A stretch of 64,000 nt of DNA from a bacterium (GTDB lineage: Bacteria > Fidelibacterota > Fidelibacteria > Fidelibacterales > Fidelibacteraceae): positions 992,001 to 1,056,000 of the forward strand of contig OY781066.1 of assembly GCA_963676395.1 (NCBI GenBank), read 5' to 3'. This document shows, piece by piece, positions 33,001 through 39,000 of the stretch. The position numbers are program-made. Position 1 is the first letter of the stretch. Each line of letters opens with the position of its first letter.

Positions 33001-36000
33001 TACGATCCAACAGGAAGCGTTGAAATTAGAAAATCTTGGTCTGATCCATAAACGCAGAGACGGCAATCGTACTTATTTTAGAGCAAATACAAATCACCCC
33101 ATTTATATGGAAATCCACCGTCTTGTCCTTAAAACGACCGGACTTCGGGATGTTCTAAGATCATATTTGTCTGATAATACAATCCGGTTTGCTTTCGTTT
33201 TTGGATCCATTGCATCTGGGAATGAAAAACCCAACAGTGATGTAGACCTTTTTATCGTGGGTGATATTGGACTTAGATCTCTAAGTAAATATTTGCTGGA
33301 ACCCAGTCAAACAATTGGACGAGAGATCAATTCATATACCATCAGCAAAAAAGAATTAACGGATAAGATCAAACAAAATGATCATTTTATATCAACAGTA
33401 ATCAATTCACAAAAACTTTTCATCAAGGGAGACGAAAATGAGTTTAAGAAATTGGTTGAAAAATGGCTGGCTCAAGCCACATCAGACAAGTAAGCAGGAA
33501 ATTGAAAATTTATTCAATATTGTAAAGCGTGATCTAGAGGATGCGCAAAGACCGGATATTTCTGCAGATTGGAAATTTGGAATTGCCTATAATGCGACAT
33601 TAAAATTATGTACCATCCTTCTGTATATCAAAAATTATAAACCAGAAAAGTCCTATACCCATTATCGAACAATACAAGCGTTACCACTAATATTGGGTGA
33701 GGAAAGATCTGATGATACTGCTTATCTTGATGCATGCCGAGTAAAAAGAAATATTGTTGAATATGATTATGTGGGCAGTACATCGGAAACTGAAGCGGAA
33801 GAATTGATCAAGTTTGTGAAAGAACTTCGGTTTGAAGTTCAGATTTGGATAAAAAAACATTACCCGGAATATCTTTAAAGACCAATCCAGTCTTGAAATT
33901 TGATAAATATAAAAAAGGGGCCGGATATACCCGGCCCCTACATTTTACATCTTACGTTTAACGTTTCACTTCCCTTACCACATCAATCACCGTGCCATCC
34001 ACCCATTTGATGGCGGCGACGACCTTATCACCCAATTCAGGCTTCTGCGGTTTTCCGCAAATGCGCTCGGCTTCTTCTTTGAGCTCTTCGATGGTCTTTA
34101 ATGGCAATCCGGAATCCTTGACCTTATCGATCAAATCCTGGCGTTTCGGGTTGATCGCGATCCCGCGTTCGGTCACGATCACATCGACCAATTCGCCGGG
34201 CCCCACCAGTGTGGTAACCTCATCACAAATAATCGGAATGCGGTTTCTGAATAACGGCACCGGTAAAATGGTGCACTTGGCGAACAGGCAATTCTGCCAA
34301 CCGCCGATACCGTGCAACATGTAGCCATCGGAGTGTGTGACAACATTACCGTTAAAGTTCACATCCACTTCGGTGGCACCCAAGATCATTACGTCCATCA
34401 TGGTCGTAAAATTACCTTTGGCGTGATAATCGTAACAGTGGAAAATAGAAATATCGGGATGTTTCTGCCGGTTCTCACGCATAGAGCGTACCGCTTCGAG
34501 ATCGAAGGTCTGAGCATCCAGCATATAATCCAGACAACCGTCTTCGAGCATTTTTGCCGAATACTGCGTGGATCCGCCGACAGCAAAACGTGCTTTGATC
34601 TGGCGTTCTTTTAACATCTTATGAAAATAAAGTCCGATAGCCAGCGAAGTTCCCCCGGCGCCCATCTGGAACGAAAATCCATCCTGTACCAAGCCGGCGG
34701 CATCACAAAATCTGGCTGTTAGTTCAGCTATTAATAAACGATCCGGACTCTTGGTGATCTGCGTGGTACCGGAGACGATCAGTTCGGGGATGCCGATTTT
34801 GTCCATCTCAACCACATAATCAACATAGTTACCGACAATCTGCATAGGGATAGCCGGAAAGGGAACTATATTATCCGAAACAACAATCACCTTATCGGCA
34901 TACTGATAATCGGCCAAAGCATAACCCAAACCGCCACAGGCCGACGGGCCGTCCAGTCCGTGTCCGTTCCCAAAAGGATCCGCTGTGGGGGCTGCCAAAA
35001 CCGCAATATCAATTTCCACTTCGCCATCCTGAATGGCCTGATAGCGACCACCGTGCGAACGAAGCACACCCATACCCTTCATTTTCCCTTCGGACGTAAA
35101 GCGGCCCAATGCTCCATTCATCGAACCTTCGATATGATGAACCACGCCACTTTCAAGGTGTTTTATAATATCTTTATGGCAAGGAAAAGATGCCGAAGGC
35201 AGCCAAACAAGATCTTTGACGCCCATTTCGGCGGCAATATCAAATACCTGATTAGCAATCAAGTCGCCATTACGTAAATGATGATGAGTGGAAATAACCA
35301 TCCCGTCTTTCAATCCGGCCTTGATCAGTGCGTCTTTCAGGGAGTCAACCCGTTTATCTCCATCGGCCGGAAAATCTATTGCTGTGGTAATTGTGGGTGC
35401 GTGTTTTTTCCCACTTGGTCGATGTTTTCCAACGCCCATAAAGGGGACGACTTTTTCTCCATTGATCTCGGTCGGCACCATTCTACCAACTGCATTTTTG
35501 ACCATTTTCATCTATCTGATCTCCTTTAAGGAATTATACTTCTTCCGCCAATTCCATCACACGAAGTGCACGCTTAACTACCGGCGGATCGATCATTTTT
35601 GATCCAACAGATACAACACCCAGCCCCTTGGCTTCGGCTTCTTTAAAAGCATCCACGATCTTCCTGGCTTTTTCAATTTCTTTTTCAGTCGGCGCAAAAG
35701 CCTCGTGAATTACCTTGATCTGCCTGGGATGAATACACCCCATTCCATCAAAACCAAGTGCCTTCGACGCCAAGACATTCTCGCGAAGCGCGGCCATATC
35801 GGATACATCCGAAAAAACCGAATCAATAGCTTGAATACCATTCGCTTTAGCCGCATTCACCAGCATACAACGTGCAAAGAAAGTCTCATTCCCGTCCTTG
35901 GTTCGAGGTGAGCCAATGTCCGCGGTATAATCTTCCAAACCAATGGCTAAACCAATCACATTTTTCGATGCGGCGGCGATCTCATAAGCTTTGATCACTC

Positions 36001-39000
36001 CTAAGGCCGATTCAATGATCGGCATGATCCAGACTTCATTTTCAATATTGTTTTTATCACGAAGGTCCTGAATACGTTTATCCACAGCCAATAACTGTTC
36101 GGGTGTTTCGCATTTTGGCAAAAGGATCACATTGGCATGATGCGGAATCACGGCATCCAGGTCTTTTAAACCACGCTCACCCTGATTGATACGCACCATA
36201 CGTTCGGCACCATAAAAATCAACTGCTCGCAAAGAGTTACGAACCAACAATCTCGCTTCATCTTTTCTATCGGGGGCAACAGAATCTTCAAGATCAAGAA
36301 TAATTCCATCACCACTATGCAAGCCGGCATTCAGCGCCAGCTTAGGCGTATTCCCGGGTAAATATAAACGCGAACGTCGCATTCTTTCACGGGCGGTTCC
36401 CGAAGTATTTTGCTCAAGCATTTCAGGTAAATATTCCACATCGGTATCAATCAATTTTTTAATACATGCTTCCAATCTGGCCGTAATAACATAATCGGGG
36501 GCACCGTTATCATCAATGGTAATTGAAGCGTGATCAATCGAAAAAGTGTCCAATACTTTGTTGATACTCTCTCTGATCAAATTTTCAAATAGAAGTTTGA
36601 CCTTAGAATTGACGGTAATATCGCGACCGCCGCTATTTGCTAGCGACAGGCTTATCTTACAGTCTGAACGGTCAGCTCTTTCGTGTTGTCCGGCATACGC
36701 GATTTTCACATCAAGCTCCTTCACAATTAGTCATTATTATTACCATATAGATTACAAAAGTTTTACCTGATTGGGTATTTATTTTTCAATAAACCCAACT
36801 TTGCTCTAGAGATTCGAAGAAAAAGCAAGGGACATATCTCCAAAAATAAAAAATGGTGTTTAATACAAATACAAGCAGGGTATCCATTTAAGTCTTACGA
36901 CCTCTATTTATAATTTTTATTAATTGCCAACCTCTTCTCCTCAATTATTAATTGAGTCTTGTTAATCTCTACTTTTTCCTTTATTTTTGTCTAGCATTAT
37001 AAACAGCAGGCGGACTTGAGGTAATATGGAAAAACATAACATCACCATTCTCATTGTCGATGATACAGCGGCCAATCTACAGATCCTAACGTCGATCGTA
37101 ACCAGTGAAGGCTATAACATACTATTAGCTCAAACCGGAGAAGAAGCCATAAAAATTGCGAATGATTATCATCCCGACATTATTCTTCTTGATGTAATGA
37201 TGCCTCAAATGGATGGTTTTGCTGTTTGCCGCCAATTAAAAGCCAACCCTGCCACTCGCCCTATCCCGGTAATCTTTGTAACCGCCAGAACAGATGTTGA
37301 AGCGGTAGAAAAAGGTTTCGATGTTGGTGGTGACGATTATGTTCCTAAGCCATTTAATGATCGAGTGCTTCTTGCTCGACTCAAAAACCACGTAGAACGT
37401 TTTCAAAGAGAGCGTGAATTATCCATTAACCGCGAGCGTTTAAATACAGCTCTTGATGCTGCCCAAATCGGTTCGTTCACCATCAAATTACCGGAAAGAG
37501 ATTGGATTCCCGATGAACAGTTACGACGCTTATTCGGTATTGAAAGCGATGAAAACAGCTATGACCTGAATACATGGTACGACCAGATCTTAGATAAAGA
37601 CAAGGAAAATACCATTCTCAAGATCGAGCGTTGTATTGCAAAAAGCACATTCAGCAAATTTGAATTCCGCATTAAAAACAAACAAGATGACATAAAATGG
37701 TTTCGCTGCTCAATGCAGGTCTCCGAACGAAACGAAAAAGGAGAAGCCGTTCTACTGGTTGGTGTAAATGTAGATACAACCAAAGAGCAGAACATGCTTG
37801 AAACCATTCGCAAGCAAGAAGACACCCTGGCACAATCAAGAAAACTAAAAGCGATGGGACAATTAACCGGCGGTATTGCTCATGATTTCAATAACATGCT
37901 AGCCACAATTTTAGGTTTCTCCGAATTGCTGGCCGATGAACTTGAAGACAATGAAGAGCTGAGCTATTATTGTAAAAACATTACCGACACATGTGAACGG
38001 GCAGCCGCCTTAACAAGTCAGCTCCTTACTTTTTCCAGAAAATCCGGTAATATTACCACAGTTATTGATCTACACGCCCTAATTAAAAACACGCTGGAAT
38101 TATTACGTCACTCAATTAGTAAGAACATTGAATTAAAATATGATCTGAAAGCAAATGAACATTTCATTCTTGGAGAAAACTCTCCTTTACAGAACATACT
38201 CCTGAACATGGGATTTAATGCTCGTGACGCAATGGGTGATAAAGGCTCTATCATTATCAGCACACAAAACGTAACCTTTAATGATGAAGAAGCCAAAAAA
38301 ATGCCTATGGAGATCAACGCCGGTCACTACATTTGCATGGATGTACGCGATACAGGTTCGGGTATGAAAAAAGAAGTACTTGATAAAATCTTTGACCCAT
38401 TCTTTACAACTAAAGGTCAGGGTAAAGGAACCGGTTTAGGATTATCATCCGCTTACGGTACTATTAACGCACATAATGGATCTATTCGTGCGGAGAGTGA
38501 AATTGGTGCTGGTACGGTTTTTCATATTTACTTTCCTCTCACGGATCTCAAACCGAAACAAGAAGTCCAAGCCGGTAAAGTTGTTAAAAGTGAAAATATT
38601 GAAGGTGGTTTGGTTCTTGTTATCGACGATGAAGTTGCCATTAGAAAGATGCTGTGCAAAACCCTCGAATATGTTGGTTATGATGTGATCGAAGCTAAAA
38701 CCGGACGCGACGGTATAGATATTTACCAAGAAAAACAAGATAGTATTACAGCTGTCATTTTGGATGTGATCATGCCCGAAATGGACGGAGTTGCGGTTTA
38801 TCGTGAACTCCGGAAGATCAACCCGGATGTTAAAGTGCTTATTTCCACCGGCTATGCCAGCAACAAACAAACTCTCGAACTGGAGAGCATGGGCGTTCTT
38901 GGCTTTTTACGTAAACCATATCGTCAAAGTGATCTTGTCTCAGCGGTCAATGCCATACACGAAGACAAACTATTACCTGAAAATGACAAATACAGATAAA

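What a model noticed while it worked through the whole genome (the two positions that open the first line are those of the whole stretch)
33958..36709. Two-subunit citrate-lyase-like enzyme: CitD fused to CitE, prosthetic-group serine lost, no citC/citG/citX
g00891 joins an acyl-carrier (CitD) domain to the lyase (CitE) and is co-transcribed with citF. The carrier domain has Arg where E. coli CitD has the serine that bears the prosthetic group, and the genes that make and acetylate that group are missing. The enzyme therefore probably works with free CoA rather than a bound prosthetic group.
Evidence so far: N-terminus matches citD (E 7.8e-13, call 152; E. coli citD by tblastn, call 153). E. 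coli reads LESGDV; here ADRSDC, and the residue before the [SG]D motif is R, K or Q in all 24 family genomes and 8 from other families. Fusion in 27 of 33 family genomes, citF adjacent in 25 of 25 loci. CitG in 0 of 33 and 0 of 5 others; no CitX, CitC below cut-off here.
(Added by a program. Inside this text positions count along the whole contig: contig position 992,001 is position 1 of the stretch shown here. "Call 12" and the like, gene names such as g00115 and contig names such as C1 are that model's own, and its searches are not shown. The text may have been shortened before it was handed on; [...] marks where a part breaks off. The agent that wrote the report below was given it as the finding of a first reader that could run no searches.)

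Follow-up and report, generated by a model that had tools for sequence, protein, structure and literature searches.

The report
Cofactor-free citrate-lyase-like pair, probably homocitrate
These two genes encode a relative of citrate lyase that has lost its built-in cofactor and probably uses free coenzyme A to split homocitrate, as the last step of an undescribed oxygen-free way of breaking down lysine.

Summary
A CitD-CitE fusion (391 aa) and citF form a two-gene unit. Arg14 sits in the column of the invariant CitD Ser14, and no citG, citX or citC was found. CitG was absent from 46 of 46 fusion genomes and 111 of 111 phylum genomes. The fusion is in print (Ignavibacterium album); my searches found no paper on the serine loss or its partners. 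The free-CoA reading is well supported. The HD caveat is weak: HD persists in operons without any CitD. The substrate is probably homocitrate, not citrate. This genome holds a fungal-type homoaconitase, a dehydrogenase with the homoisocitrate motif, PrpD, lysine 6-aminotransferase and P6C dehydrogenase, but no citrate synthase, homocitrate synthase or LysW route. Close relatives of the dehydrogenase occur with LysW lysine-synthesis genes. One family replaces the pair with a CoA ligase plus citryl-CoA lyase. Best model: lysine to 2-oxoadipate, then the aminoadipate steps backwards, then cleavage to 2-oxoglutarate and acetate. Against it: P6C dehydrogenase was found in only 19 of 45 other fusion genomes, and nothing is assayed. 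The scan proposed this reading before on other genomes.

The parts
35534..36709 (-). CitD-CitE fusion gene, 391 aa (open frame extends to a GTG at 36724, 396 aa)
   Evidence: (P0003, 391 aa)
36440..36709 (-). Carrier-like (CitD/MdcC fold) domain without the attachment serine; predicted to dock on CitF
   Evidence: PF06857 55.7 bits; VIA top hit MdcC 5vit_C Z 10.0, rmsd 2.2, 83 aligned; complex score 0.63 vs best control 0.00
36668..36670 (-). Arg14 codon (Arg19 in 396-aa numbering), in the column of E. coli CitD Ser14; followed by Ser15-Asp16
35543..36385 (-). CitE-family acyl-CoA C-C lyase domain (TIM barrel)
   Evidence: TIGR01588 290.8 bits, below cut-off 443.4; VIA Z 31.4 to malyl-CoA lyase 5ugr_A, 29.6 to CLYBL
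36716..36721 (-). Ribosome-binding site (AAGGAG) before the 36709 start
   Evidence: sequence
35521..35526 (-). Ribosome-binding site (AAGGAG) before citF
   Evidence: sequence
33958..35511 (-). citF, family II CoA/ACP transferase, 517 aa, 39% identical to E. coli CitF
   Evidence: TIGR01584 513.8 vs cut-off 501.45; 2hj0 E 1.4e-126
33916..33939 (-). Terminator-like hairpin (10 pairs, 8 G-C) plus T run, closing the two-gene unit
   Evidence: consensus scan; 4 found vs 3.4 in shuffles, so not proof

Best explanation
CitF and the CitD-CitE fusion form a two-subunit, free-CoA tricarboxylate lyase whose substrate is most likely homocitrate. CitF moves CoA from acetyl-CoA onto homocitrate and releases acetate. 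The CitE domain splits homocitryl-CoA into 2-oxoglutarate and acetyl-CoA, so acetyl-CoA is catalytic and no CitC, CitG or CitX is needed. The serine-less carrier domain is kept as a docking module that holds the two active sites together; Arg14 may bind a CoA phosphate (speculative). In this genome the pair ends a lysine-degrading route whose genes are scattered: Lat and Pcd make 2-aminoadipate, a transaminase (not identified) gives 2-oxoadipate, the dehydrogenase carboxylates it reductively to homoisocitrate, homoaconitase and PrpD convert that to homocitrate, and the lyase gives 2-oxoglutarate plus acetate. Shown: gene content, motifs, co-occurrence. Inferred: every reaction, the substrate and the direction. 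My odds: free CoA about 0.85; homocitrate as main substrate about 0.7; all of it, catabolic, in this genome about 0.55.
For: Free CoA. Family f3 carries a CoA-ligase alpha/beta pair plus citryl-CoA lyase (NF004869, 281 vs cut-off 212) at the head of the same HD-aconitase-dehydrogenase-PrpD operon, with no fusion. Homocitrate: own homoaconitase passes TIGR00139 (758.7 vs 529.9). The dehydrogenase's best solved relative is Thermus HICDH and it has the SPIV motif of S. pombe HICDH 3ty3, where the isocitrate dehydrogenases shown have Asn. It falls in a starred clade (98/98) with the dehydrogenase of a LysW lysine-synthesis operon in G100 and with that of G051, which has homocitrate synthase and LysX. 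Orthologs occur in 43 of 46 fusion genomes, and in 60 of 67 fusion vs 19 of 44 non-fusion phylum genomes. Catabolic direction here: Lat (681.5 vs 520.8) and Pcd (812.9 vs 730) in one operon; no homocitrate synthase, LysX below cut-off, LysA-like gene present; no SucA or close glutaryl-CoA dehydrogenase match as another sink. Lat (13) or saccharopine dehydrogenase (25) in 38 of 46 fusion genomes with no overlap; LKR lies beside the fusion in 6 of 80 loci. Homoaconitases do only the homoaconitate-homoisocitrate half, so a second enzyme is needed (PMC3556520, passages). Docking: score 0.63, best control 0.00; the mark was reached by 116 of 157 solved and 2 of 215 mismatched pairs; runs agree in at least 89% of contacts, partner pLDDT at least 81; MdcA-MdcC is a solved like complex, so the pass may reflect that likeness.
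Against: No enzyme has been assayed. CitF passes the citrate lyase alpha cut-off. This genome has no other isocitrate dehydrogenase and no AcnA/B-type aconitase, so the module could serve citrate; it has malic enzyme and a weak PEPCK-like match to use oxaloacetate. Thermus HICDH also takes isocitrate (recalled). Pcd was found in only 19 of 45 other fusion genomes: 0 of 8 in the Cloacimonadota group and 6 of 15 Bacteroidales. Family f3 has the module but no Pcd (0 of 4). Pcd is also in 23 of 44 non-fusion phylum genomes, so that link is loose, and kin are not independent. One operon has a DASS transporter between the two genes (L134), which fits an imported acid. 8 of 46 fusion genomes showed neither lysine entry (incomplete assemblies). 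A later check of a similar earlier finding says part of it fell (e1-5105092; no detail shown).
Confidence: 0.55

Rival explanations
1. Free-CoA citrate lyase acting on citrate (alone or besides homocitrate). The module is a non-standard citrate branch: 2-oxoglutarate is reductively carboxylated to isocitrate, isomerised and cleaved to oxaloacetate plus acetate, or imported citrate is fermented.
For: CitF above the citF cut-off; no other isocitrate dehydrogenase or AcnA/B in this genome; PrpD lies directly behind the sdh genes; DASS transporter in L134; f3 uses citryl-CoA-lyase-family genes and lacks Pcd; Liu et al. 2012 read the I. album pair as citrate lyase.
Against: Homoaconitase above cut-off and SPIV motif; same dehydrogenase clade used with LysW lysine synthesis; citrate-synthase-family matches in 29 of 46 fusion genomes, so many have an ordinary citrate route (3 of these are partial low-score matches); LKR/SDH adjacency.
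Confidence: 0.25
2. The pair runs in the building direction and replaces homocitrate synthase (or citrate synthase), feeding lysine or glutamate synthesis.
For: Homocitrate synthase-like match in only 1 of 46 fusion genomes; no citrate synthase in 8 of 8 genomes of the own group; the Cloacimonadota group has LKR/SDH without Pcd and G013 showed no LysA.
Against: This genome has no LysX, LysZ or saccharopine enzymes to finish lysine synthesis and has Lat, Pcd, a LysA-like and a DapF-like gene. A transferase-lyase cycle does not hydrolyse a thioester, so synthesis from free acetate is poorly driven at millimolar levels (general knowledge, recalled).
Confidence: 0.12
3. The carrier domain still bears a covalent CoA-like arm, on Ser15, attached by an unrecognised enzyme such as the HD protein or AcpS.
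For: Ser15 is present in all 115 fusions that include the motif and in 24 of 25 domains in the wider set; it lies in the predicted CitF interface. MdcG-type transferases were not searched.
Against: That column is Gly or Ser in canonical CitD; it is Gly in G067. No CitG-family enzyme to make the precursor. HD persists without CitD and has Ala/Cys/Ile-Asp in place of His-Asp.
Confidence: 0.06

Closest known systems
Citrate (pro-3S)-lyase CitDEF with CitC, CitG, CitX (EC 4.1.3.6; E. coli, Klebsiella, lactic acid bacteria)
   Same: Homologous alpha (39% to E. coli CitF), beta (41% to CitE) and gamma (30% to CitD) parts; transferase-then-lyase logic (PMC10798043, passages).
   Different: Gamma fused to beta; Ser14 column is Arg in a loop three residues longer; no CitC/G/X; 84 of 197 near-invariant CitF columns and 52 of 119 fusion columns differ from E. 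coli; travels with homoaconitase, HICDH-like, PrpD and HD genes.
Ignavibacterium album IALB_1146/IALB_1147 (Liu et al. 2012, PMC3362086)
   Same: CitF plus a fusion of CitE and CitD, as the paper states (passages).
   Different: The passages read treat it as citrate lyase and say nothing on the serine, the helper genes or homocitrate. I did not fetch the I. album sequences.
Upper alpha-aminoadipate pathway of fungi and Thermus (homocitrate synthase, aconitase, Lys4/LysF, Lys12)
   Same: Homoaconitase above cut-off, HICDH motif, split isomerisation needing a second enzyme.
   Different: No homocitrate synthase; PrpD instead of aconitase; a CitE-type lyase with a transferase; inferred to run backwards.
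Malonate decarboxylase MdcA-MdcC (PDB 5VIT; PMC5534430)
   Same: Same carrier fold (Z 10.0); in the paper MdcC contacts MdcA and MdcE, with Ser25 pointing at the MdcA active site (section 7).
   Different: MdcC Ser25 carries the prosthetic group; here the aligned residue is Arg and the domain is fused to a lyase.
Citryl-CoA synthetase plus citryl-CoA lyase (Aquificae-type citrate cleavage; recalled)
   Same: Free-CoA activation then cleavage; genes of these families replace the pair in family f3.
   Different: ATP-dependent and yields acetyl-CoA; unrelated folds.

Membership tests
Canonical citrate lyase CitDEF | CitF alpha subunit | tested here: met
   TIGR01584 513.8 vs 501.45
Canonical citrate lyase CitDEF | CitE beta subunit at equivalog level | tested here: not met
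   TIGR01588 290.8 vs 443.4 over the full profile length; homologous but below cut-off
Canonical citrate lyase CitDEF | Carrier with the attachment serine (Ser14; that it bears the group is recalled) | tested here: not met
   Arg in that column; Ser14 invariant in 17 of 17 canonical CitD
Canonical citrate lyase CitDEF | CitG, CitX and CitC in the genome | tested here: not met
   genome is one contig, 95.3% complete
Canonical citrate lyase CitDEF | Cleaves citrate to acetate and oxaloacetate | not testable with these tools
   needs an assay
CitD/MdcC carrier fold | MdcC-like fold | tested here: met
   PF06857 above cut-off; AF2 model pLDDT 89.4, top VIA hit 5vit_C Z 10.0 vs next 8.7
Upper aminoadipate pathway, biosynthetic | Homoaconitase | tested here: met
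   TIGR00139 758.7 vs 529.9 for C1:1850114-1852072
Upper aminoadipate pathway, biosynthetic | Homoisocitrate dehydrogenase | tested here: inconclusive
   Best models are HICDH but all below cut-off; motif and clade favour it; the tree held no true IDH
Upper aminoadipate pathway, biosynthetic | Homocitrate synthase and a route from 2-aminoadipate to lysine | tested here: not met
   Only LeuA and CimA in HMGL-like; LysX 133 bits vs 275.6; no LysZ, LKR or SDH match
Malonate decarboxylase system | MdcB (CitG family) and MdcG | tested here: inconclusive
   PF01874 absent; MdcG family not searched

The most novel reading that the evidence does not exclude
An undescribed anaerobic lysine catabolic pathway, widespread in Marinimicrobia, Cloacimonadota, Anaerolineae and Bacteroidales. 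It incorporates CO2 into 2-oxoadipate and ends in a homocitrate lyase that replaced its covalent cofactor with free CoA. Because CitE-type lyases and PrpD handle Si-type products (recalled), the intermediate may be (S)-homocitrate, the mirror image of the biosynthetic one.
Probability: 0.5. Interest if true: 0.85.

Novelty: new variant of a known kind. Interest (0 to 1): 0.72.

Why it matters
Two things would be new. First, a citrate-lyase-type enzyme that dropped its covalent arm but kept the carrier as a scaffold shows how carrier-bound and free-CoA chemistry interconvert. Second, if the substrate is homocitrate, many abundant uncultured anaerobes have a redox-balancing route from lysine to 2-oxoglutarate and acetate that needs no glutaryl-CoA dehydrogenase. 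Annotating these genes as citrate lyase may have prompted wrong calls of citrate fermentation or a reverse TCA cycle, as raised for I. album. Two soluble proteins and common substrates make it cheap to test.

Tried and rejected
HD protein as a CitG/X substitute: rejected; the Atlas gave only unnamed HD clusters. Citrate_ly_lig hit as CitC: it is CoaD. A second, standalone carrier: none by Pfam or by own profiles. A short-length search with the carrier domain gave one fragment. Pair as a general citrate synthase substitute: weakened. Link of HD to the fab operon next to it here: not conserved in 6 of 6 relatives' loci. Nucleotidyltransferase downstream of citF as a CitX stand-in: it looks like a MntA-type antitoxin and is not a conserved neighbour. 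Paper searches: (Ser14) gave no relevant paper; two searches gave none; one search gave one unrelated review; some searches gave the papers cited or unrelated ones. The library lacks most subscription journals, so 'not in print' holds only for these searches. No supplements were read. Sequencing runs: no RNA holder listed. PDB profile search with the carrier alignment hit designed beta-trefoils by chance and MdcC only at E 1.9. Motif greps from memory are crude: they missed a fumarase later found.
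Full report
Observation. The upstream gene probably starts at GTG 36709 behind an AAGGAG, giving 391 aa. Its first 90 residues match the CitD/MdcC carrier family (PF06857, 55.7 bits) and the rest matches CitE below the equivalog cut-off (290.8 vs 443.4). The downstream gene passes the citF cut-off. The gap is 22 nt and a terminator-like hairpin follows citF. Co-transcription is inferred from this layout. The genome is one contig, 95.3% complete; close protein relatives are named Marinimicrobia.

The serine. E. coli CitD was read from the annotated record. 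Among 120 enterobacterial CitD, 117 matched ES[GS]D, 103 with Gly and 14 with Ser after the serine. Among 117 fusion proteins (37 and 80; the sets may overlap), 114 matched the pattern and all read RSD. Of the three misses, two lack the N-terminus and one begins at MRSDC. In 25 domains that include 7 more distant phylum members, the column is Arg 23 and Lys 2, and the next is Ser 24 and Gly 1. Three MAFFT modes and hhalign (80 ungapped columns, probability 98.7) put Arg on Ser14. That Ser14 bears the group in CitD remains recalled; one search found no paper. Indirect support: the carrier model's best fold match is MdcC (Z 10.0, rmsd 2.2, 83 aligned), whose Ser25 carries the same group (PMC5534430, passages). 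A weak profile hit (E 1.9) starts with the Asp at MdcC residue 27, which would place Arg at 25 (read from the ranges, no alignment printed).

Helper genes. No CitG or CitX in this genome. The CitC-domain hit is CoaD. CitG was found in 0 of 46 fusion genomes (the own genome plus 45 of the 80 loci, picked by me for lineage spread and contig length) and 0 of 111 phylum genomes, 67 of which have the fusion. The two sets share at least five genomes. CitX was searched only here and MdcG not at all. citF lies downstream on the same strand in 79 of 80 loci; the other ends at a contig edge. The fusion is in print for Ignavibacterium album as a citrate lyase (PMC3362086, passages). The canonical system needs CitC, CitG and CitX (PMC10798043, passages; PMC2996986, passages).

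What the carrier domain may do. A complex prediction of CitF with the domain and CoA scored 0.63 against a best control of 0.00. The mark was reached by 116 of 157 solved and 2 of 215 mismatched pairs; runs agree in at least 89% of contacts and partner pLDDT is at least 81. Arg14 and Ser15 are in the interface. MdcC likewise bridges MdcA and MdcE (PMC5534430, section 7), so the pass may reflect likeness to that solved complex. I read the domain as a tether. Binding of a CoA phosphate by Arg14 is speculation; the tool gave no ligand contacts.

Partners. In 11 to 12 of 80 loci the pair shares a cluster with a beta-decarboxylating dehydrogenase (12), an HD protein (11) and LeuCD-type hydratases (11); PrpD is seen in 5 and LKR in 6. 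This genome holds the same set, scattered: dehydrogenase C1:1249340, HD C1:413725, homoaconitase C1:1850114, PrpD-like C1:1800074 (the PrpD call rests on 49% identity to a Pfam-matched protein, and NCBIfam gave no family at E 1e-40). Dehydrogenase orthologs are in 43 of 46 and HD in 40 of 46 fusion genomes. In the phylum sample the dehydrogenase is in 60 of 67 genomes with the fusion and 19 of 44 without. Kin are not independent, so I give no P value.

Substrate. The hydratase passes the fungal homoaconitase cut-off (758.7 vs 529.9). The dehydrogenase's best solved relative is Thermus HICDH. It reads YFSPIVRLR, like S. pombe HICDH YSSPIVALR, whereas the isocitrate dehydrogenases shown have Asn at the Ile position; 27 of 33 listed rows matched the pattern and all of them have SPIV (one locus is listed twice). 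The role of these positions in specificity is recalled. In G100, which lacks the fusion, a 60% identical dehydrogenase and a homoaconitase above cut-off sit in an operon with a homocitrate-synthase-like gene (406 vs 413.55), LysK, LysZ and LysY-like genes. G051 has homocitrate synthase and LysX above cut-off and a 72% identical dehydrogenase elsewhere. Both fall in one starred clade with the own enzyme (98/98; 33 rows, LeuB as only outgroup). Homoaconitases catalyse only the homoaconitate-homoisocitrate half, and methylcitrate needs a separate syn-eliminating dehydratase (PMC3556520, passages). PrpD fits as the missing half for a product of a CitE-type lyase; that stereochemical argument is my inference from recalled chemistry.

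A natural swap. Family f3 has the dehydrogenase (4 of 4) and no fusion (0 of 4). In L121 and L122 a CoA-ligase beta and alpha pair and a citryl-CoA lyase (281 vs 212 for L122) head the HD-hydratase-dehydrogenase-PrpD operon; L125 shows the lyase before the contig ends. So the step is interchangeable with free-CoA activation plus cleavage, and HD does not need CitD. HD also has Ala, Cys or Ile in place of the His of its motif in 21 of 21 aligned rows. Its role is unexplained.

Direction in this genome. Lysine 6-aminotransferase (681.5 vs 520.8) and P6C dehydrogenase (812.9 vs 730) are adjacent at C1:2180500-2183381. There is no citrate synthase, no homocitrate synthase (only LeuA and CimA), no LysX above cut-off and a LysA-like gene at 269.6 vs 297.9. 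No SucA, SucCD or Mdh match and only a 28% glutaryl-CoA-dehydrogenase-like match were found with single queries. 2-Oxoacid:ferredoxin oxidoreductase, methylmalonyl-CoA mutase, epimerase and a sodium-pumping decarboxylase are present and could take the 2-oxoglutarate onward. Across 46 fusion genomes, Lat was found in 13 and full-length saccharopine dehydrogenase in 25, with no overlap; I did not count 6 genomes with only partial matches near 33% identity. A homocitrate-synthase-like gene was found in 1 of 46.

Results against this reading. Pcd was found in 19 of 45 other fusion genomes, in none of the 8 Cloacimonadota-group genomes and in 6 of 15 Bacteroidales. In the phylum it is in 62 of 67 with the fusion but also 23 of 44 without. 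Family f3 lacks Pcd, LysX above cut-off (3 of 3 tested) and homocitrate synthase, so its 2-oxoadipate source is unknown. This genome has no other IDH or AcnA/B-type enzyme, which leaves room for citrate or for both substrates. L134 has a DASS transporter inside the pair, and L134 and L136 end with an acyl-CoA dehydrogenase, which could mean flow toward glutaryl-CoA. Direction may differ by lineage.

Mechanism. CitF transfers CoA from acetyl-CoA to homocitrate through an anhydride, as family II transferases do (PMC5534430, passages). The lyase domain then releases 2-oxoglutarate and regenerates acetyl-CoA. That isolated citrate lyase subunits accept CoA esters is recalled. Net, 2-oxoadipate + CO2 + NAD(P)H gives 2-oxoglutarate + acetate, close to equilibrium by analogy with the citrate reactions (recalled), and it reoxidises the NADH made by Pcd.

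Novelty. The fusion is known; the serine loss, the missing helpers and the homocitrate-lysine link were not found in my ten searches. It fails membership of canonical citrate lyase but works like one. I wrote the homocitrate and reverse-aminoadipate idea in note 1 before seeing earlier scan notes; those notes propose the same on other genomes and are not independent support. What this window adds is a near-complete genome with the genes scattered and a Lat entry, the Lat/SDH complementarity, the ligase-lyase swap, the LysW-operon relatives and the docking model. PMC5317091 (passages) only notes LysW lysine synthesis in Caldithrix. Verdict: new variant of a known kind, interest 0.72.

Noticed in passing
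window 32876-33878 (+): HTH-nucleotidyltransferase gene and a 146-aa partner, like a MntA-HEPN toxin-antitoxin pair, converging on citF; 36% GC against 45-49% for the two cit genes.
   Followed up: partly
window 31763-32593 (+): 276-aa ORF with no Pfam or NCBIfam match and 32% GC.
   Followed up: no
window 37026-38999 (+): Hybrid histidine kinase divergent from the fusion; relatives lie in the same clusters in several loci of the own group.
   Followed up: no
G000:C1:98248-99615: A second CitE-family gene with a MaoC-type hydratase inside a surface-polysaccharide sugar cluster.
   Followed up: no
G000:C1:1526582-1527784: Divergent 400-aa aconitase-family ORF (85 bits) among cell-wall-related genes, with no small subunit seen nearby.
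   Followed up: no
G000:C1:1796898-1801426: The PrpD-like gene lies 38 nt behind an sdh/frd operon.
   Followed up: partly
L005-L011: lipB lies upstream of the fusion on the same strand in 7 of 80 loci, all of the own group.
   Followed up: no
L061, L078: Two tandem citF copies behind the fusion in two Bacteroidales loci.
   Followed up: no
L121, L122, L125: CoA ligase alpha/beta plus citryl-CoA lyase in place of the citDE-citF pair, in a family without Pcd, LysX or homocitrate synthase.
   Followed up: partly
L134:4032-5456 and 13149-14306; L136:3812-4981: DASS transporter between the two genes; acyl-CoA dehydrogenase behind PrpD.
   Followed up: partly
L086:126-650 and relatives: Conserved HD-family protein with the motif His replaced; function unexplained, tied to the dehydrogenase and hydratase.
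   Followed up: partly
L013, L023, L031: Two tandem fused LeuCD-type hydratases and no PrpD in view; they may split the two half-reactions.
   Followed up: no
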